Shown: piece after piece, positions 192-60,762 of the stretch
Position numbering within the stretch: position 1 is the first letter of the stretch
How the letters are laid out: each line of letters opens with the position of its first letter
Source of the DNA: Escherichia coli
Lineage (GTDB): Bacteria; Pseudomonadota; Gammaproteobacteria; Enterobacterales; Enterobacteriaceae
Assembly (NCBI RefSeq): GCF_003334385.1
Contig: NZ_QOWN01000026.1
DNA length: 64,000 bases
Reading direction: 5' to 3' (one strand)
The notes under the pieces: generated by a model
Seen by the model: the letters and a program-made list of their open reading frames with translations, nothing else
Told to the model about the DNA's origin: nothing
The model's database searches: none
Position numbers and translations under genes: made by a program

Positions 192-2765
192 TTACTGGAC
201 GGCGACAATCCGGTCTTCATTAACTTCCAGGCGAATCACTTTACCCGGAACCAATTCACCAGACAGTATTTGCTGTGCCAGCGGGTTTTCGATCTGCTGC
301 TGAATTGCACGTTTCAGAGGACGTGCACCATAGACCGGATCGTAACCGTTCTCGCTCAGCAGTTTCAGCGCCTCGTCAGAAATGTGGATTTCATAACCAC
401 GTTCTTCCAGACGTTTGTACAGACGTTTCAACTGAATCTGCGCAATCGAGGCAATGTGCTGTTCACCCAGCGGATGGAAGACCACCACTTCATCGATACG
501 GTTAATGAATTCCGGACGGAAGTTATGGCTTACCACACCGAGCACCAGCTCTTTCATGTGCGCATAATCCAGTTCACCGAAGCGTTCCTGAATCAGATCG
601 GAACCGAGGTTAGAGGTCATAATGACGACCGTATTACGGAAGTCGACCGTTCTCCCTTGCCCGTCAGTCAGACGCCCATCATCCAGTACCTGCAACAGAA
701 TGTTGAAGACATCCGGATGCGCTTTTTCCACTTCATCCAGCAGGATGACGGAATACGGACGACGACGCACCGCTTCGGTCAGGTAGCCACCTTCTTCATA
801 ACCGACATATCCCGGAGGCGCACCAACCAAACGAGACACCGAGTGTTTCTCCATAAACTCGGACATATCGATACGGACCATCGCCTCGTCGCTATCAAAC
901 ATAAAGTTCGCCAGCGCCTTACAAAGCTCTGTTTTCCCCACACCAGTTGGGCCGAGGAACAGGAATGAACCAATCGGGCGATTTGGATCCGCCAGCCCCG
1001 CACGGCTACGACGAATAGCGTTAGATACCGCATCAACCGCTTCGTTCTGACCAATTACGCGATGGTGCAGTTCTTGCTCCATACGCAGCAGTTTTTCGCG
1101 CTCGCTTTCCATCATGCGAGAAACCGGAATCCCCGTCCAACGCGCCAGCACTTCAGCAATTTCGGCGTCGGTCACTTTATTACGCAACAGACGCATAGTT
1201 TTGCCTTCGAGCTGCGTTGCGGCTTCCAGTTGCTTTTCCAGTTCCGGGATTTTGCCGTATTGCAGTTCAGACATCCGCGCCAGGTCCCCCACACGGCGAG
1301 CCTGTTCAATAGCGATTTTCGCCTGTTCCAGTTCCGCTTTAATGGTCTGCGTACCAGAAAGCGATGCCTTCTCTGCTTTCCACTCTTCTTCTAACTCGGA
1401 GTACTGACGTTCTTTGTCGCTCAGTTCTTCGTTGAGCATATCCAGACGTTTTTTACTGGCTTCATCAGACTCTTTCATTAACGCCTGTTGTTCCAGTTTG
1501 AGCTGGATGATACGACGATCGAGTCGGTCGAGTTCTTCTGGTTTTGAGTCAATCTGCATACGAATGCTGGATGCTGCTTCATCGATCAGGTCGATGGCTT
1601 TATCCGGCAGCTGACGGTCAGCAATGTAGCGATGAGACAACGTCGCCGCTGCAACAATTGCCGGGTCAGTAATTTGCACATGGTGGTGCAATTCGTAACG
1701 TTCTTTCAGGCCACGCAGAATCGCAATGGTATCTTCAACAGAAGGCTCGGCAACAAACACTTTCTGGAAACGACGTTCCAGCGCAGCATCTTTTTCAATG
1801 TACTGGCGATATTCGTCAAGCGTCGTGGCACCTACGCAGTGCAATTCACCACGCGCCAGCGCCGGTTTCAGCATGTTTCCGGCGTCCATTGCGCCATCGG
1901 CTTTACCCGCGCCGACCATGGTATGTAATTCGTCGATAAATAGGATGACGTTGCCTTCCTGTTTGGCAAGATCGTTAAGCACGCCTTTTAAACGTTCTTC
2001 AAACTCACCGCGATATTTCGCCCCAGCCACCAGCGCGCCCATATCCAGCGCCAGTACCCGGCGGCCTTTCAACCCTTCCGGCACTTCGCCGTTGATAATA
2101 CGCTGCGCCAGACCTTCAACGATGGCAGTTTTACCGACGCCGGGTTCACCAATCAGTACCGGGTTATTTTTAGTACGACGTTGCAGCACCTGAATGGTAC
2201 GGCGAATTTCTTCATCACGACCAATCACCGGATCGAGTTTGCCCTGTTCGGCTCGTTCGGTAAGGTCGATGGTATATTTTTTCAAAGCCTGACGTTGGTC
2301 TTCAGCACCTTGATCGTTCACGCTTTCACCTCCACGCATTTGTTCAATCGCTTGAGTAATGTTGGCGGTGGTCGCCCCTGCTGCTTTCAGGATGTCGGCC
2401 AGCGTGCCGCGAGACTCAAGTGCCGCCAGAACGAACAGTTCTGACGAGATAAAGTTATCACCACGTTTTTGCGCCAGCTTGTCGCAAAGATTAAGAACGC
2501 GCACCAGATCCTGTGATGGCTGGACATCACCACCAGTACCTTCAACCTGCGGTAAACGATTTAATGCCTGATTGATATCTGTGCGCAACTGGCCAGCATT
2601 TATGCCAGCGGATGTTAATAAAGGACTAACCGAACCCCCTTCCTGATTCAGCAGGGCGCTCATTAAATGAAGTGGTTCGATAAATTGGTTGTCGTGCCCG
2701 AGTGCAAGTGATTGGGCATCGGCAAGAGCAAGCTGGAATTTATTAGTAAGACGATCCAGACGCAT
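192..2765 (-). CDS. clpB: ClpB disaggregase (AAA+ chaperone, Hsp100)
   Basis: 861-aa ORF with two Walker A motifs ([16 protein letters not shown]); I place the start at the internal [10 protein letters not shown] methionine, giving 857 aa. Confidence 0.97.
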
Positions 2766-2799
2766 AACTCCTCCCATAACGGATCAAAGTTGCTACTGG

Positions 2800-2835
2800 A
2801 GATTAAATGAGGTCATCCCTCAATTATTCAAGGTT
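2800..2835 (-). promoter_or_regulatory. sigma32 heat-shock promoter of clpB
   Basis: Minus strand reads CTTGAAT (-35) ... CCTCATTTA (-10), matching sigma32 consensus CTTGAA / CCCCATnT, upstream of the clpB start. Confidence 0.7.
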
Positions 2836-2894
2836 ATTGACCAGATTAATGTGAAAAGAAAATCACGCGTACCGGATCGTCTTGATTCTTTAGG

Positions 2895-3626
2895 TTATAT
2901 CAGCCAAATGAAACTTGCCATACGACCGGTGGTCTTGTCGCGACGATAAGAGAAGAAAGTCTCATTTTCCGTATATGTACAACGGTCGCCGCCGAAAATT
3001 TGCTCAACACCCACGTTCGCCAGACGCTGCCGGGCAAGCTGATAAATATCCGCCAGATACTTATCACCATGCTGAATGAAAGCTGCACTTGCTTTAGCGT
3101 CTACTGCCATAAACGCCTCGCGAACCTCCCCCCCCACTTCGAACGCGCGTGGACCAATTGCCGGCCCTAACCAGGCGAGAATATTTTCCGGATTATCAGC
3201 AAAACAGGAAACCGTCTCTTCCAGCACGCCTGCGCACAGTCCACGCCAGCCAGCATGAGCGGCGGCGACTTCCGTTCCCGCTCGATTGCAAAACAGCACA
3301 GGGAGGCAGTCGGCAGTCATCACTGCGCAAACCGTGCCGGGCGTATTGCTATAAGAGGCATCCGCCCGTTTTGAGGCATAAGGTTCGCCAGTGAGCTTAA
3401 GCACATCTTTGCCGTGTACCTGCTCAAGCCAGACCGGTTTAGAAGGCAAATTGCCCGCAGCAAAAAGTCGCTTGCGATTCTCCTCAACGTGATCCGGGTT
3501 ATCGCCACAATGGGCACCGAGGTTGAGTGAGTCATACGGGGGCAAGCTCACGCCGCCGATACGAGTGGAGCTACAGGCCGCAACACCTTTTGGCTGCGGC
3601 CACTGCGGGACAATCAGCTTACTCAT
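2895..3626 (-). CDS. yfiH: YfiH/PgeF family protein (purine nucleoside phosphorylase / laccase-like)
   Basis: 243-aa ORF recognised as YfiH; 4-nt overlap with the start of rluD (operon). Confidence 0.9.
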   Translation of the reverse strand: MSKLIVPQWPQPKGVAACSSTRIGGVSLPPYDSLNLGAHCGDNPDHVEENRKRLFAAGNLPSKPVWLEQVHGKDVLKLTGEPYASKRADASYSNTPGTVCAVMTADCLPVLFCNRAGTEVAAAHAGWRGLCAGVLEETVSCFADNPENILAWLGPAIGPRAFEVGGEVREAFMAVDAKASAAFIQHGDKYLADIYQLARQRLANVGVEQIFGGDRCTYTENETFFSYRRDKTTGRMASFIWLI

Positions 3627-4603
3627 AACCAGTCCACTTCATCCTTATGTTCTTCGAAATCGGCGCGCATCACCTCAATCAGCTCCACCATATCTTGTGG
3701 AATAGGCGCATGCCATTCCATTTCGATGCCGGAGATCGGGTGATAAAGACGCAGCATGGTTGCATGTAGCGCCTGGCGGTCAAACTTACGCAGCGTGGAG
3801 ATAAATGCTTCCGAAGCACCTTTTGGCGGACGCGGACGGCCACCATAAACCGGATCGCCCACCAGCGGATGAGTGATATGGGCCATATGCACGCGGATCT
3901 GGTGCGTACGTCCAGTTTCCAGACGCAACCGCAGACGCGTGTGCACACGGAAGTGTTCCATGATGCGATAGTGAGTCACCGCTGGTTTGCCCATCGGATG
4001 CACCGCCATATGGGTACGTTTGGTCGGGTGGCGACTGATTGGCTCGTCCACCGTGCCACCTGCGGTCATATGACCAATCGCCACCGCTTCATACTCACGA
4101 GTAATTTCACGCCGTTGCAAAGATTCGACTAAACGCGTCTGAGCCGGAACGGTTTTTGCCACAACCATCAGGCCAGTGGTGTCTTTATCCAGACGATGGA
4201 CGATGCCCGCACGCGGTACATCGGCAATGGGTGGATAGTAATGAAGCAACGCATTCAGTACCGTGCCATCCGGGTTACCCGCGCCAGGATGTACCACCAG
4301 GTCGCGCGGTTTATTAATGATAATAATGTCTTCATCTTCATAGACGATATCCAGCGGGATATCCTGCGGTTCAAAACGCGCTTCTTCTTCAATCTCAGCG
4401 TTGATGGCAACCTGCTCGCCACCCAATACTTTTTCTTTCGGCTTATCACAAACTTTGCCGTTAACCAGCACTCGCTGGTCGAGGATCCATTCTTTTATTC
4501 GCGAACGTGAATAATCCGGGAACATTTCGGCCAAAGCCTGATCTAAGCGTTGACCGAGTTGGTTTTCGGACACCGTTGCAGTGAGCTGTACTCGTTGTGC
4601 CAT
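3623..4603 (-). CDS. rluD: 23S rRNA pseudouridine synthase RluD
   Basis: 326-aa ORF with an S4-like N-terminus and RluA-family catalytic motif (HRLDKDTTG). Confidence 0.95.
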   Translation of the reverse strand: MAQRVQLTATVSENQLGQRLDQALAEMFPDYSRSRIKEWILDQRVLVNGKVCDKPKEKVLGGEQVAINAEIEEEARFEPQDIPLDIVYEDEDIIIINKPRDLVVHPGAGNPDGTVLNALLHYYPPIADVPRAGIVHRLDKDTTGLMVVAKTVPAQTRLVESLQRREITREYEAVAIGHMTAGGTVDEPISRHPTKRTHMAVHPMGKPAVTHYRIMEHFRVHTRLRLRLETGRTHQIRVHMAHITHPLVGDPVYGGRPRPPKGASEAFISTLRKFDRQALHATMLRLYHPISGIEMEWHAPIPQDMVELIEVMRADFEEHKDEVDWL

Positions 4604-56185: not shown

Positions 56186-56923
56186 ATGGAAAGCCCTACT
56201 CCACAGCCTGCTCCTGGTTCGGCGACCTTCATGGAAGGATGCAAAGACAGTTTACCGATTGTTATTAGTTATATTCCGGTGGCCTTTGCGTTCGGTCTGA
56301 ATGCGACCCGTCTGGGATTCTCTCCTCTCGAAAGCGTTTTTTTCTCCTGCATCATTTATGCAGGCGCGAGCCAGTTCGTCATTACCGCGATGCTGGCAGC
56401 CGGGAGTAGTTTGTGGATTGCTGCACTGACCGTCATGGCAATGGATGTTCGCCATGTGTTGTATGGCCCGTCACTGCGTAGCCGTATTATTCAGCGTCTG
56501 CAAAAATCGAAAACCGCCCTGTGGGCGTTTGGCCTGACGGATGAGGTTTTTGCCGCCGCAACCGCAAAACTGGTACGCAATAATCGCCGCTGGAGCGAGA
56601 ACTGGATGATCGGCATTGCCTTCAGTTCATGGTCATCGTGGGTATTTGGTACGGTAATAGGGGCATTCTCCGGCAGCGGCTTGCTGCAAGGTTATCCCGC
56701 CGTTGAAGCTGCATTAGGTTTTATGCTTCCGGCACTCTTTATGAGTTTCCTGCTCGCCTCTTTCCAGCGCAAACAATCTCTTTGCGTTACCGCAGCGTTA
56801 GTTGGTGCCCTTGCAGGCGTAACGCTATTTTCTATTCCCGTCGCCATTCTGGCAGGCATTGTCTGTGGCTGCCTCACTGCGTTAATCCAGGCATTCTGGC
56901 AAGGAGCGCCCGATGAGCTATGA
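56186..56923 (+). CDS. ygaZ: AzlC-family branched-chain amino-acid (valine) exporter subunit
   Basis: 245-aa membrane ORF recognised as YgaZ. Confidence 0.9.
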
Positions 56924-57248
56924 GGTTCTGCTGCTTGGGTTACTAGTTGGCGTGGCGAATTATTGCTTCCGCTATTTGCCGCTGCGCCTGCGTGTGGGTA
57001 ATGCCCGCCCAACCAAACGTGGCGCGGTAGGTATTTTGCTCGACACCATTGGCATCGCCTCGATATGCGCTCTGCTGGTTGTCTCTACCGCACCAGAAGT
57101 GATGCACGATACACGCCGTTTCGTGCCCACGCTGGTCGGCTTCGCGGTACTGGGTGCCAGTTTCTATAAAACACGCAGCATTATCATCCCAACACTGCTT
57201 AGTGCGCTGGCCTATGGGCTCGCCTGGAAAGTGATGGCGATTATATAA
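56913..57248 (+). CDS. ygaH: AzlD-family exporter subunit
   Basis: 111-aa membrane ORF; 11-nt overlap with ygaZ. Confidence 0.9.
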
Positions 57249-57338
57249 CCCACAAGAATCATTTTTCTAAAACAATACATTTACTTTATTTGTCACTGTC
57301 GTTACTATATCGGCTGAAATTAATGAGGTCATACCCAA

Positions 57339-57869
57339 ATGGATAGTTCGTTTACGCCCATTGAACAAATGCTAAAATTTCGCGCCAGCCGCCACGAAGA
57401 TTTTCCTTATCAGGAGATCCTTCTGACTCGTCTTTGCATGCACATGCAAAGCAAGCTGCTGGAGAACCGCAATAAAATGCTGAAGGCTCAGGGGATTAAC
57501 GAGACGTTGTTTATGGCGTTGATTACGCTGGAGTCTCAGGAAAACCACAGTATTCAGCCTTCTGAATTAAGTTGTGCTCTTGGATCATCCCGTACCAACG
57601 CGACGCGTATTGCCGATGAACTGGAAAAACGCGGTTGGATCGAACGTCGTGAAAGCGATAACGATCGCCGCTGCCTGCATCTGCAATTAACGGAAAAAGG
57701 TCACGAGTTTTTGCGCGAGGTTTTACCACCGCAGCATAACTGCCTGCATCAACTCTGGTCCGCGCTCAGCACAACAGAAAAAGATCAGCTCGAGCAAATC
57801 ACCCGCAAATTGCTCTCCCGTCTCGACCAGATGGAACAAGACGGTGTGGTTCTCGAAGCGATGAGCTAA
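57339..57869 (+). CDS. mprA: MarR-family repressor MprA (EmrR)
   Basis: 176-aa ORF recognised as MprA/EmrR. Confidence 0.95.
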
Positions 57870-57916
57870 CGCGTCATCTCGCTCAAAAATCCAGATTTAT
57901 AAAAGAAAAAATGACT

Positions 57917-57945
57917 GGCCAGCATCGCAACATGCTGGCCTTTTT
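57917..57945 (+). terminator. Intrinsic-terminator-like hairpin between mprA and emrA
   Basis: Perfect 9-bp stem GGCCAGCAT / ATGCTGGCC with a 6-nt loop, followed by TTTTT. Confidence 0.55.
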
Positions 57946-57995
57946 GGCAAGCAGGTCGGCTCAGCCGATGAGTTAAGAAGATCGTGGAGAACAAT

Positions 57996-59168
57996 ATGAG
58001 CGCAAATGCGGAGACTCAAACCCCGCAGCAACCGGTAAAGAAGAGCGGCAAACGTAAGCGTCTGCTCCTCCTTCTCACCTTGCTCTTTATAATTATTGCC
58101 GTAGCGATAGGGATTTATTGGTTTTTGGTACTGCGTCACTTCGAAGAAACCGATGACGCATACGTGGCAGGGAATCAAATTCAAATTATGTCTCAGGTGT
58201 CTGGCAGCGTGACGAAAGTCTGGGCCGATAACACCGATTTTGTAAAAGAAGGCGACGTGCTGGTCACTCTCGACCCGACAGATGCTCGCCAGGCGTTTGA
58301 AAAAGCCAAAACTGCACTGGCTTCCAGCGTTCGCCAAACCCACCAGCTGATGATTAACAGCAAGCAGTTGCAGGCGAATATTGAGGTGCAGAAAATCGCC
58401 CTCGCGAAAGCACAAAGCGACTACAACCGCCGTGTGCCGCTGGGCAATGCCAACCTGATTGGTCGCGAAGAGCTGCAACACGCCCGCGACGCCGTCACCA
58501 GTGCCCAGGCGCAACTGGACGTCGCGATTCAACAATACAATGCCAATCAGGCGATGATTCTGGGGACTAAACTGGAAGATCAGCCAGCCGTGCAACAGGC
58601 TGCCACCGAAGTACGTAACGCCTGGCTGGCGCTGGAGCGTACTCGTATTATCAGTCCGATGACCGGTTATGTCTCCCGCCGCGCGGTACAGCCTGGGGCG
58701 CAAATTAGCCCAACGACGCCGCTGATGGCGGTCGTTCCAGCCACCAATATGTGGGTGGATGCCAACTTTAAAGAGACGCAGATTGCCAATATGCGTATCG
58801 GTCAGCCGGTCACTATCACCACGGATATTTACGGCGATGATGTGAAATACACCGGTAAAGTGGTTGGTCTGGATATGGGCACAGGTAGCGCGTTCTCACT
58901 GCTTCCAGCGCAAAATGCGACCGGTAACTGGATCAAAGTCGTTCAGCGTCTGCCTGTGCGTATCGAACTGGACCAGAAACAGCTGGAGCAATATCCGCTG
59001 CGTATCGGTTTGTCCACGCTGGTGAGCGTCAATACCACTAACCGTGACGGTCAGGTACTGGCAAATAAAGTACGTTCCACTCCGGTAGCGGTAAGCACCG
59101 CGCGTGAAATCAGCCTGGCACCTGTCAATAAACTGATCGACGATATCGTAAAAGCTAACGCTGGCTAA
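57996..59168 (+). CDS. emrA: Multidrug efflux membrane fusion protein EmrA
   Basis: ORF 57984-59168; start placed at MSANAETQTPQQ (ATG 57996) to give 390 aa. Confidence 0.95.
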   Translation: MSANAETQTPQQPVKKSGKRKRLLLLLTLLFIIIAVAIGIYWFLVLRHFEETDDAYVAGNQIQIMSQVSGSVTKVWADNTDFVKEGDVLVTLDPTDARQAFEKAKTALASSVRQTHQLMINSKQLQANIEVQKIALAKAQSDYNRRVPLGNANLIGREELQHARDAVTSAQAQLDVAIQQYNANQAMILGTKLEDQPAVQQAATEVRNAWLALERTRIISPMTGYVSRRAVQPGAQISPTTPLMAVVPATNMWVDANFKETQIANMRIGQPVTITTDIYGDDVKYTGKVVGLDMGTGSAFSLLPAQNATGNWIKVVQRLPVRIELDQKQLEQYPLRIGLSTLVSVNTTNRDGQVLANKVRSTPVAVSTAREISLAPVNKLIDDIVKANAG

Positions 59169-59184
59169 TCCAGAGGTGCGTGTG

Positions 59185-60723
59185 ATGCAACAGCAAAAAC
59201 CGCTGGAAGGCGCGCAACTGGTCATTATGACGATTGCGCTGTCACTGGCGACATTCATGCAGGTGCTGGACTCCACCATTGCTAACGTGGCGATCCCCAC
59301 TATCGCCGGGAATCTGGGCTCATCGCTCAGCCAGGGAACGTGGGTAATCACTTCTTTCGGGGTGGCGAATGCCATCTCGATCCCGCTTACCGGCTGGCTG
59401 GCAAAGCGCGTCGGGGAAGTGAAACTGTTCCTTTGGTCCACCATCGCCTTTGCTATTGCGTCGTGGGCGTGTGGTGTCTCCAGCAGCCTGAATATGCTGA
59501 TCTTCTTCCGCGTGATTCAGGGGATTGTCGCCGGGCCGTTGATCCCGCTTTCGCAAAGTCTATTGCTGAATAACTACCCGCCAGCCAAACGCTCGATCGC
59601 GCTGGCGTTGTGGTCGATGACGGTGATTGTCGCGCCAATTTGCGGCCCGATCCTCGGCGGTTATATCAGCGATAATTACCACTGGGGCTGGATATTCTTC
59701 ATCAACGTGCCGATTGGCGTGGCGGTGGTGTTGATGACACTGCAAACTCTGCGCGGACGTGAAACCCGCACCGAACGGCGGCGGATTGATGCCGTGGGGC
59801 TGGCACTGCTGGTTATTGGTATCGGCAGCCTGCAGATTATGCTCGACCGCGGTAAAGAGCTGGACTGGTTTTCATCACAGGAAATTATCATCCTTACCGT
59901 GGTGGCGGTGGTGGCTATCTGCTTCCTGATTGTCTGGGAGCTGACCGACGATAACCCGATAGTCGATCTGTCGTTGTTTAAGTCGCGCAACTTCACCATC
60001 GGCTGCTTGTGTATCAGCCTCGCGTATATGCTCTACTTCGGCGCTATTGTTCTGCTGCCGCAGTTGTTGCAGGAGGTCTACGGTTACACGGCGACCTGGG
60101 CAGGTTTGGCCTCTGCGCCGGTAGGGATTATTCCGGTGATCCTGTCGCCGATTATCGGCCGCTTCGCGCATAAACTGGATATGCGGCGGCTGGTAACCTT
60201 CAGCTTTATTATGTATGCCGTCTGCTTCTACTGGCGTGCCTATACCTTTGAACCAGGTATGGATTTTGGCGCGTCGGCCTGGCCGCAGTTTATCCAGGGG
60301 TTTGCGGTGGCCTGCTTCTTTATGCCGCTGACCACCATTACGCTGTCTGGTTTGCCACCGGAACGACTGGCGGCGGCATCGAGCCTCTCTAACTTTACGC
60401 GAACGCTGGCGGGGTCTATCGGCACGTCGATAACCACGACCATGTGGACCAACCGCGAGTCAATGCACCATGCGCAGTTGACTGAGTCGGTAAACCCGTT
60501 CAACCCGAATGCCCAGGCGATGTACAGTCAACTGGAAGGGCTTGGGATGACGCAACAGCAGGCATCAGGCTGGATTGCCCAGCAGATCACCAATCAGGGG
60601 CTGATTATTTCCGCCAATGAGATCTTCTGGATGTCAGCCGGGATATTCCTCATCCTGCTGGGGCTGGTGTGGTTTGCTAAACCGCCATTTGGCGCAGGTG
60701 GCGGCGGAGGCGGTGCGCACTAA
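59185..60723 (+). CDS. emrB: Multidrug efflux MFS pump EmrB
   Basis: ORF 59176-60723 (GTG); start placed at ATG 59185 (MQQQKPLEGAQ) to give 512 aa. Confidence 0.95.
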   Translation: MQQQKPLEGAQLVIMTIALSLATFMQVLDSTIANVAIPTIAGNLGSSLSQGTWVITSFGVANAISIPLTGWLAKRVGEVKLFLWSTIAFAIASWACGVSSSLNMLIFFRVIQGIVAGPLIPLSQSLLLNNYPPAKRSIALALWSMTVIVAPICGPILGGYISDNYHWGWIFFINVPIGVAVVLMTLQTLRGRETRTERRRIDAVGLALLVIGIGSLQIMLDRGKELDWFSSQEIIILTVVAVVAICFLIVWELTDDNPIVDLSLFKSRNFTIGCLCISLAYMLYFGAIVLLPQLLQEVYGYTATWAGLASAPVGIIPVILSPIIGRFAHKLDMRRLVTFSFIMYAVCFYWRAYTFEPGMDFGASAWPQFIQGFAVACFFMPLTTITLSGLPPERLAAASSLSNFTRTLAGSIGTSITTTMWTNRESMHHAQLTESVNPFNPNAQAMYSQLEGLGMTQQQASGWIAQQITNQGLIISANEIFWMSAGIFLILLGLVWFAKPPFGAGGGGGGAH

Positions 60724-60726
60724 GTA

Positions 60727-60762
60727 CAACTAAGCCAGTTCATTTGAACTGGCTTTTTTCAA
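60727..60762. terminator. Bidirectional terminator between emrB and luxS
   Basis: Palindrome AAGCCAGTTCA-TT-TGAACTGGCTT followed by a T-run. Confidence 0.75.

What the first reader, a model, noticed from the sequence alone, without database searches (positions are those of the whole stretch)
57870..57995. Strong terminator-like hairpin inside the mprA-emrA intergenic region
A perfect 9-bp GC-rich stem plus T5 (57917-57945) sits between mprA and emrA, although the three genes are described as one operon. It could act as an attenuator setting the ratio of repressor to pump transcripts, or flank an internal emrA promoter.
Basis: seen in the sequence. Interest (0 to 1): 0.25.

Follow-up and report, generated by a model that had tools for sequence, protein, structure and literature searches.

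The report
Known terminator after the mprA gene
The hairpin is a real, conserved transcription stop signal just after the E. coli repressor gene mprA, so most transcripts end before the emrAB drug-pump genes; published RNA 3'-end mapping (2021) and a 2025 paper already describe it.

Summary
GGCCAGCAT-CGCAAC-ATGCTGGCC (57917-57940) plus TTTTT (57941-57945) lies 48 nt after the mprA stop and 50 nt before the emrA ATG. It folds at -16.7 kcal/mol, z = -4.9. No comparable site appeared in 100 shuffles of the window.

It is already documented. The Term-seq table of Adams et al. 2021 lists an RNA 3' end on the last T (57945), left unassigned as "orphan". Chen et al. 2025 (PNAS) call it a Rho-independent terminator. 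Their northern blots show that the main mprA RNA is about 900 nt (ygaH'-mprA, predicted 888 nt), not the 3.5-kb operon transcript. That length fits 57058-57945 exactly.

My additions:
- The hairpin is single-copy and present in 5418 of 5426 complete E. coli genomes.
- It is conserved in 79 Enterobacteriaceae species and in Erwiniaceae, with some compensatory changes.
- Most other genera carry a weaker tail (UUUCUGA rather than UUUUUGG).
- No promoter-like site lies between mprA and emrA, so emrAB most likely depends on read-through.
- A second conserved hairpin and an invariant Shine-Dalgarno box follow.

Verdict: an ordinary, already published leaky intra-operon terminator. The read-through fraction has not been measured.

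The parts
57058..57058 (+). Reported alternative transcription start inside ygaH (codon 49); 5' end of the 888-nt ygaH'-mprA RNA
   Evidence: [quoted passage not shown] My arithmetic: ygaH ATG 56913, codon 49 = 57057-57059, and 57945-888+1 = 57058. The exact base is inferred. No strong sigma-70 match was seen upstream.
57339..57869 (+). mprA (emrR) coding sequence, MarR-family repressor of the operon
   Evidence: 176-aa ORF. RefSeq annotation of identical DNA reads 'multidrug efflux transporter EmrAB transcriptional repressor EmrR'.
57870..57945 (+). mprA 3' UTR (76 nt), ending at the mapped RNA 3' end
   Evidence: Term-seq 3' end 2811376(+). The table's 61-nt sequence equals window 57895-57955, with the 51st base at 57945.
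57917..57940 (+). Terminator hairpin: 9-bp stem (6 G-C pairs), 6-nt loop
   Evidence: It is conserved in 79 Enterobacteriaceae intergenic regions with 95.7% of cells paired and 3 pairs showing double changes. RNAalifold recovers it de novo.
57941..57945 (+). U tract (T5) of the terminator; the RNA 3' end is on the last T
   Evidence: The tail is TTTTTGG in Escherichia but TTTCTGA in 62 of 79 species.
57955..57969 (+). Second conserved hairpin in the emrA leader (GUCGGC-UCA-GCCGAU, 6 bp); function unknown
   Evidence: dG -10.1 kcal/mol, z = -2.5. 98.3% of cells paired, with compensatory changes. Recovered by RNAalifold. Replaced by an unrelated hairpin, CCAGU-CUC-ACUGG, at the same place in Shimwellia.
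57978..57991 (+). AAGATCGTGGAGAA box containing the emrA Shine-Dalgarno GGAG
   Evidence: Nearly invariant across 79 species, although EmrA proteins are only 78-99% identical.
57996..59168 (+). emrA coding sequence (membrane-fusion subunit of the pump)
   Evidence: ORF. The ATG at 57996 aligns with residue 1 in all 79 homologues. RefSeq annotation.
59185..60723 (+). emrB coding sequence (MFS transporter subunit)
   Evidence: ORF 59176-60723. The start at the ATG giving MQQQKPLEG is inferred.
60732..60761 (+). Operon-distal hairpin plus T tract after emrB, shared with convergent luxS
   Evidence: 10-bp stem plus TTTTTT. The Term-seq table lists the minus-strand (luxS) 3' end 2814159, which is window 60728. 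No plus-strand end is listed there.

Best explanation
The element is a Rho-independent (intrinsic) transcription terminator at the end of the mprA 3' UTR. As RNA polymerase transcribes 57917-57945, the nascent RNA forms a 9-bp G+C-rich hairpin directly followed by five U. Most complexes release there, giving a monocistronic mprA RNA: about 888 nt from the start inside ygaH, shorter from the classical mprA promoter. A minority read through and produce the mprA-emrA-emrB message. The pump genes therefore stay under the MprA-repressed upstream promoter but at a lower transcript level than the repressor.

Shown by published experiments: the RNA 3' end at 57945 and the roughly 900-nt main isoform. 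Shown here: the anatomy, its improbability by chance, its single-copy status and its conservation. Inferred: that the 3' end arises by termination rather than trimming, that emrAB expression comes from read-through, and that this sets the repressor-to-pump ratio.
For: - **Anatomy:** a perfect 9-bp stem, 6-nt loop and T5, dG -16.7 kcal/mol, z = -4.88. The hairpin is present in both the MFE and the centroid fold of the whole spacer.
- **Chance:** 0 comparable sites in 100 shuffles of the 64-kb window.
- **3' end:** Term-seq 2811376(+), whose sequence places the end on window 57945, the last T (PMC7815308 Supplementary file 1). No Rho-termination region and no other 3' end is listed nearby.
- **Transcript size:** the northern main isoform is about 900 nt, not 3.5 kb. 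[quoted passage not shown] 57058 to 57945 is exactly 888 nt.
- **Conservation:** present in 5418 of 5426 complete E. coli genomes, once per genome. The stem, loop and T5 are unchanged in the sampled variant strains. It is kept in 79 Enterobacteriaceae species and in Pantoea/Erwinia-like genomes, with compensatory changes and a U4-U5 tail.
- **Read-through:** no promoter-like site lies between mprA and emrA. emrA and emrB are derepressed 5.7- and 5.9-fold in a Salmonella emrR deletion (PMC6469979).
Against: - Term-seq cannot distinguish termination from 3'-to-5' trimming back to a stable hairpin.
- The Term-seq read count (861) is near the bottom of the listed range. The end is listed once, in what by position is the LB OD 0.4 sheet, not in all three conditions.
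- I found no in vitro termination assay, no hairpin or U-tract mutant and no measured read-through value.
- Outside Escherichia the U tract is interrupted (UUUCUGA, and in 4 species UGUCUGA). The conserved role of the hairpin may therefore not be efficient termination.
- I could not read 5'-end (TSS) data for emrA.
Confidence: 0.85

Rival explanations
1. The hairpin is mainly an RNA stability element. Polymerase does not stop there. The full operon RNA is cut downstream, and 3'-to-5' exonucleases trim back to the hairpin, leaving a stable mprA fragment that ends at 57945.
For: Term-seq maps ends, not termination events. In 66 of 79 species the tail is a weaker UUUCUGA or UGUCUGA while the stem is almost invariant. 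This suggests selection acts on the hairpin more than on the U tract.
Against: The E. coli element has every canonical terminator feature, and the 3' end falls on the last U of an uninterrupted U5. That is the usual release position, whereas trimming normally stops a few bases 3' of the stem. UUUCU tails are still compatible with intrinsic termination (established knowledge). The authors of PMC12704781 interpret it as a terminator.
Confidence: 0.07
2. emrAB has its own promoter in or next to the spacer. The terminator then cleanly separates two transcription units.
For: Chen et al. 2025 found the operon-length transcript was not the main isoform. A CCCP-evolution study speaks of the mprA-emrA spacer as including 'promoter control sequences' and found 6 mutations there (10.1101/392977).
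Against: No sigma-70-like match of at least 8 of 12 exists on the + strand from 57700 to 57995. Only 50 nt separate the T tract from the ATG, and a conserved hairpin and the SD box fill them. emrA and emrB are derepressed when emrR is deleted, as expected for the upstream MprA-controlled promoter.
Confidence: 0.05
3. It is a regulated attenuator. An alternative antiterminator fold, a ligand, a protein or a small RNA switches termination off under drug stress.
For: The spacer is unusually conserved, with two hairpins and the SD box. Six spacer mutations were selected under CCCP.
Against: No Rfam family matches; the best hit is isrD at 17 bits against a gathering score of 37. The terminator hairpin dominates both the MFE and the centroid fold, and no competing upstream helix is predicted. 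RNAalifold finds only the two simple hairpins. The stop codon is 48 nt upstream, too far for a terminating ribosome to melt the stem. Induction is already explained by ligand release of MprA from the promoter (summarised in PMC6469979).
Confidence: 0.05
4. [quoted passage not shown] This does not exclude the terminator role.
For: A terminator hairpin plus U5 is the usual 3' module of Hfq- or ProQ-bound small RNAs. There is a weak, sub-threshold resemblance to the isrD model. The ATCCAGATT box in the UTR is conserved.
Against: No small RNA 5' end or chaperone-binding evidence was found, and the RIL-seq tables could not be read. The isrD hit is below threshold and probably reflects generic terminator shape.
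Confidence: 0.05

Closest known systems
The mprA-emrA terminator itself, as published (Adams et al. 2021 eLife Term-seq; Chen et al. 2025 PNAS)
   Same: It is the same element. [quoted passage not shown]
   Different: Nothing differs in the element. The 2021 table left the end unassigned ('orphan'). Neither paper, as far as I could read, reports its conservation, the weaker U tract in other genera, the read-through fraction or the second hairpin.
Leaky intra-operon intrinsic terminators (attenuators) that lower distal gene expression, e.g. T1 between rpsU and dnaG, the rplL-rpoB attenuator and the rpsO terminator upstream of pnp (from general knowledge, not tested here)
   Same: A hairpin plus U tract sits between cistrons of one transcription unit. 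This gives an abundant short RNA for the proximal gene and a rarer read-through RNA for distal genes. As in rpsO-pnp, a second hairpin follows in the distal leader.
   Different: Here the proximal gene is the operon's own repressor. No processing site, distal promoter or read-through value has been shown.
MarR-family repressor-first efflux operons such as marRAB (from general knowledge)
   Same: An autoregulated MarR-type repressor is encoded first, with a ligand-released operator at the promoter.
   Different: I tested no other such operon for a terminator after the repressor gene. In Serratia and Gibbsiella the homologous mprA is followed after 21-28 nt by an outer-membrane-factor gene, with no hairpin. 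The terminator is therefore not a universal feature of mprA loci.

Membership tests
Rho-independent (intrinsic) terminator | Stable G+C-rich stem-loop in the nascent RNA | tested here: met
   9 perfect pairs, 6 of them G-C, 6-nt loop, dG -16.7 kcal/mol, z = -4.88.
Rho-independent (intrinsic) terminator | U-rich tract immediately 3' of the stem | tested here: met
   TTTTT at 57941-57945 directly abuts the stem. The tail is weaker (TTTCTGA) in most other genera.
Rho-independent (intrinsic) terminator | RNA 3' end mapped within the U tract in vivo | tested here: met
   Literature data read here: Term-seq 3' end 2811376(+) falls on the last T, 57945 (PMC7815308 Supplementary file 1). The 888-nt RNA length fits.
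Rho-independent (intrinsic) terminator | Independence from Rho (bicyclomycin-insensitive) | tested here: inconclusive
   No Rho-termination region is listed at 28110xx-28115xx in the supplementary tables of PMC7815308. Absence from a list for a weakly expressed locus is weak evidence.
Rho-independent (intrinsic) terminator | Release by purified RNA polymerase in vitro; loss on stem or U-tract mutation | not testable with these tools
   No such experiment was found in the papers I could read.
Regulated attenuator / riboswitch-type leader | Mutually exclusive antiterminator structure or a known aptamer upstream of the terminator | tested here: not met
   No Rfam match above threshold. The terminator hairpin is in the MFE and centroid folds with no competing helix. 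The consensus fold shows only two independent hairpins.
Repeated extragenic palindrome (REP/BIME-type) element | Many copies per genome | tested here: not met
   The median is one place per genome; 5418 of 5426 genomes have a match, always between emrR and emrA.
Bidirectional terminator | T tract directly after the stem on both strands and convergent transcription | tested here: not met
   On the minus strand the T run is separated from the stem by AGTCA. Both neighbouring genes are on the + strand. No minus-strand 3' end is listed there.
3'-UTR-derived small RNA | Discrete short RNA with its own 5' end and chaperone binding | not tested
   The relevant RIL-seq/CLIP tables were not available.

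The most novel reading that the evidence does not exclude
The whole mprA-emrA spacer may be a tuned post-transcriptional module rather than a plain terminator. It would comprise the terminator hairpin, a second structurally conserved hairpin (57955-57969) and an invariant AAGATCGTGGAGAA box, with a possible anti-SD partner UCCAGAUU at 57890-57897. Terminator strength would be set lineage by lineage: U5 in Escherichia and Erwiniaceae, UUUCU in most Enterobacteriaceae. The second hairpin and anti-SD pairing would control stability or translation of the read-through emrAB message. The six spacer mutations selected under CCCP would then act by weakening this module.
Probability: 0.15. Interest if true: 0.35.

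Novelty: already known. Interest (0 to 1): 0.12.

Why it matters
EmrAB-TolC is an intrinsic multidrug and uncoupler efflux pump, and MprA also controls capsule and virulence genes. A terminator between repressor and pump means databases that list mprA-emrAB as a single unit overstate co-expression, because the repressor message is made in excess. It also means mutations in a 29-nt element, or an IS insertion like the one seen in one blood isolate, could raise pump expression without touching mprA. This corrects the operon picture and gives a plausible resistance-mutation target. It is not a new principle, and the core fact has been in print since 2021 and 2025.

Tried and rejected
**Sequence tests that found nothing**
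- Rfam scan of 57000-58400: only sub-threshold chance hits.
- Internal emrA promoter: no sigma-70-like site, by the scan tool and by my own relaxed scan.
- Antiterminator or alternative fold: none predicted.
- Repeat element: rejected, because the sequence is single-copy.
- Bidirectional terminator: rejected (see membership test).

**Tests that were inconclusive**
- The long-range helix UCCAGAUUU:GAUCGUGGA from the MFE fold is 87.7% paired, with only one-sided changes and 17 sequences broken at one pair.
- I asked whether the strong U5 tail tracks the presence of ygaZH upstream. All 8 loci with U5 have ygaZH, but so do about 25 loci without it, so there is no clean link.

**Literature that could not be used**
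- Not held: Lomovskaya 1995, Thomason 2015 TSS tables, Melamed 2020 RIL-seq, the SEnd-seq paper and the journal version of the CCCP evolution paper.
- The SMRT-Cappable-seq and TERMITe supplements contain no mprA or emrA entry.
- The Dar & Sorek and Chen et al. supplements are not held.
- The positions of the six CCCP-selected spacer mutations are in an image table and could not be read.

Full report
**1. What is in the sequence**

The window is E. coli DNA. The 141 nt around the finding are 100% identical to many RefSeq E. coli chromosomes, where the flanking genes are annotated emrR (= mprA) and emrA.

The mprA ORF ends with TAA at 57867-57869, and the emrA ATG is at 57996. Within the 126-nt spacer the sequence reads GGCCAGCAT (57917-57925), CGCAAC, ATGCTGGCC (57932-57940), TTTTT (57941-57945).

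**2. Is it more than chance?**

The hairpin alone folds at -16.7 kcal/mol, against -6.9 ± 2.0 for shuffles (z = -4.88, 0 of 200 as good). It is present in both the minimum-energy and centroid folds of the whole spacer.

Scanning both strands of the 64-kb window for a perfect G+C-rich stem of at least 9 bp, a 3-8 nt loop and a T-rich tail gives five distinct sites. It gives none in 100 dinucleotide-preserving shuffles. Another of the five sites is the hairpin after emrB (60733).

**3. It is already documented experimentally**

Supplementary file 1 of Adams et al. 2021 (eLife, PMC7815308) lists a curated Term-seq 3' end at MG1655 position 2811376 on the + strand. The average read count is 861 and the class is "orphan". 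The flanking sequence given is ATTTATAAAAGAAAAAATGACTGGCCAGCATCGCAACATGCTGGCCTTTTTGGCAAGCAGG.

That string equals window 57895-57955. The table format is 50 nt upstream, the 3' end, then 10 nt downstream. I checked this on the thrL and sgrS rows of the same table (the thrL check also uses the thrL stop coordinate, 255, from memory). The mapped end is therefore 57945, the last T of the T5.

The entry occurs once in the file, in the part that by position belongs to the LB OD 0.4 sheet. That assignment is inferred. No other 3' end and no Rho-termination region is listed at 28110xx-28115xx.

Chen et al. 2025 (PNAS, PMC12704781) went further. [quoted passage not shown] Their 5' RACE found a start inside ygaH at codon 49. 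[quoted passage not shown]

My arithmetic agrees. ygaH starts at 56913, so codon 49 is 57057-57059, and 57945-888+1 = 57058.

**4. What I could add: conservation**

*Within E. coli.* The spacer is present in 5418 of 5426 complete genomes, once per genome and always between emrR and emrA. It is therefore not a repeated element. In three variant strains I sampled (ST131, O157 and one more), the only differences are at 57913 and 57916, just 5' of the stem. The stem, loop, T5 and everything downstream are unchanged.

*Across Enterobacteriaceae.* I extracted the spacer from 79 species and aligned it.
- The hairpin is present in all of them, with dG from -8.7 to -20.5 kcal/mol.
- The stem GGCCAGCA/UGCUGGCC is almost invariant while the loop varies freely.
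- 95.7% of cells pair, and three pairs show double (compensatory) changes. Examples are GGCCUGCAU/AUGCAGGCC and AGCCGGU/ACUGGCU.
- RNAalifold recovers the hairpin without guidance.

Covariation is limited because the stem sequence itself is so conserved.

*Beyond the family.* Pantoea- and Erwinia-type genomes keep a GCCAGCG/CGCUGGC hairpin with a U4-U5 tail at the same place. In Serratia and Gibbsiella, mprA is followed after 21-28 nt by an outer-membrane-factor gene, with no hairpin.

*Tail strength.* Escherichia (5 of 5 sequences) and three Kosakonia/Enterobacter-like species have UUUUUGG. Of the rest, 62 of 79 have UUUCUGA and 4 have UGUCUGA. The terminator is thus probably stronger in Escherichia than in most relatives. 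This is an inference from U-tract rules, not a measurement.

I tested whether this tracks the upstream ygaZH genes, which Chen et al. link to a new mprA start site. It does not do so cleanly.

**5. Where does emrAB transcription come from?**

Neither the scan tool nor my relaxed scan (at least 8 of 12, with A2 and T6) finds a sigma-70-like promoter on the + strand between 57700 and 57995. The 50 nt between the T tract and the ATG are filled by a conserved hairpin and the SD box.

In Salmonella, deleting emrR raises emrA and emrB 5.7- and 5.9-fold (PMC6469979). The literature summarised there attributes control to MprA binding at the promoter upstream of mprA.

The simplest reading is that emrAB is expressed by read-through of a leaky terminator. 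This step is inferred. I found no measured read-through value and could not read any TSS table.

**6. Mechanism and rivals**

*Best explanation (0.85).* This is an intrinsic terminator ending the mprA 3' UTR. It gives an abundant monocistronic repressor message and a rarer mprA-emrAB read-through message.

*Rivals.*
- The end arises by exonuclease trimming to a protective hairpin (0.07). Term-seq cannot exclude this, and the weak tails in other genera hint that the hairpin itself is what selection keeps.
- An internal emrA promoter exists (0.05). There is no sequence support.
- Termination is regulated (0.05). No antiterminator fold, no Rfam match, and the stop codon is 48 nt away.
- The 3' UTR also yields a small RNA (0.05). 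This is untested and not exclusive.

A bidirectional role is unlikely. On the minus strand the T run is 5 nt from the stem, there is no convergent gene and no minus-strand 3' end is listed.

**7. Other features in the same spacer**

- **Second hairpin.** GUCGGC-UCA-GCCGAU (57955-57969) is 98.3% paired across the 79 species, with compensatory changes. Shimwellia has an unrelated hairpin of the same shape at the same place. It has no U tract, so it is not a terminator, and its role is unknown. A 5' stabiliser or a processing site of the read-through RNA are guesses.
- **SD box.** AAGATCGTGGAGAA (57978-57991), which contains the SD, is nearly invariant.
- **Possible anti-SD pairing.** The MFE fold pairs UCCAGAUUU (57890-57898) with this box. 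The alignment neither supports nor refutes it.

**8. Possible genetic evidence**

A CCCP evolution study of E. coli W3110 reports six mutations in the mprA-emrA spacer among evolved strains (10.1101/392977). Their positions are in an image table that I could not read. If they hit 57917-57945, they would show that the terminator limits pump expression.

One blood isolate (AF57, NZ_OZ546943.1) carries an IS4 inserted in the 3' arm of the hairpin, with a 12-bp target duplication, CGCAACATGCTG.

**9. Verdict**

The terminator/attenuator interpretation is supported by published 3'-end mapping and northern blots, and the internal-promoter alternative is not supported.

The element is an ordinary intrinsic terminator, and its existence and role at this locus have been in print since 2021 and 2025, so the novelty class is "already known". 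What remains open is quantitative: the read-through fraction, the effect of tail differences between genera, and the role of the second hairpin. Interest is low.

Noticed in passing
window 57955-57969: A second hairpin (GUCGGC-UCA-GCCGAU) lies between the terminator and the emrA SD. It is conserved in 79 Enterobacteriaceae species with compensatory changes and is replaced by a different hairpin at the same spot in Shimwellia (L092). It has no U tract, and its function is unknown.
   Followed up: partly
window 57978-57991: AAGATCGTGGAGAA, which includes the emrA Shine-Dalgarno, is nearly invariant in 79 species. The EmrA protein is only 78-99% identical, so constraint on the leader is stronger than a bare SD would need.
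   Followed up: partly
window 57890-57898 with 57979-57988: The MFE fold pairs UCCAGAUUU in the mprA 3' UTR with GAUCGUGGA (the emrA SD), enclosing both hairpins. In the alignment 87.7% of cells pair, with wobble-compatible changes in Klebsiella-type sequences but a broken pair in 17 sequences. Inconclusive.
   Followed up: partly
window 57941-57947; alignment A1 columns 93-99: The terminator tail is UUUUUGG in Escherichia (and in L075, L078, L079 and Erwiniaceae) but UUUCUGA in 62 of 79 species and UGUCUGA in 4. Termination is probably stronger in Escherichia. There is no clean link with the presence of ygaZH upstream.
   Followed up: partly
L081 (NZ_OZ546943.1, isolate AF57) 2530-4000; equivalent to window 57926-57937: An IS4 element (transposase on the opposite strand) is inserted into the 3' arm of the terminator hairpin in one UK blood-culture isolate. 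The 12-bp target duplication is CGCAACATGCTG. It separates emrAB from mprA by about 1.4 kb.
   Followed up: partly
window 57870-57995 (literature: 10.1101/392977): Experimental evolution under CCCP yielded six mutations in the mprA-emrA intergenic region. Their positions are not readable here (image table). They may hit the terminator or the emrA leader.
   Followed up: partly
L086 (Serratia) 2023-2043; L088 (Gibbsiella) 2020-2047: In these Yersiniaceae, mprA is followed after only 21-28 nt by an outer-membrane-factor (OEP) gene instead of a terminator and emrA. The operon layout differs (emrCAB-like).
   Followed up: no
window 60732-60761 and 60728: The hairpin after emrB is shared with convergent luxS. 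The Term-seq table lists a very strong minus-strand 3' end (2814159, which is window 60728) but no plus-strand end there. This fits very low emrAB transcription in LB.
   Followed up: no
window 57000-57060: The reported mprA start site inside ygaH (about 57058) has no obvious sigma-70 -10/-35 match upstream in the scans I ran.
   Followed up: no
window 57240-57269, minus strand: The best sigma-70-like match of the region (TAGAAA-18-TATAAT, 10 of 12) lies on the minus strand in the ygaH-mprA spacer, pointing away from mprA. Significance unknown.
   Followed up: no
L019 3032-3223: One Enterobacteriaceae isolate (RIT714) has about 60 extra bases inserted in the mprA 3' UTR upstream of the terminator hairpin. 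The hairpin and everything downstream are intact.
   Followed up: no
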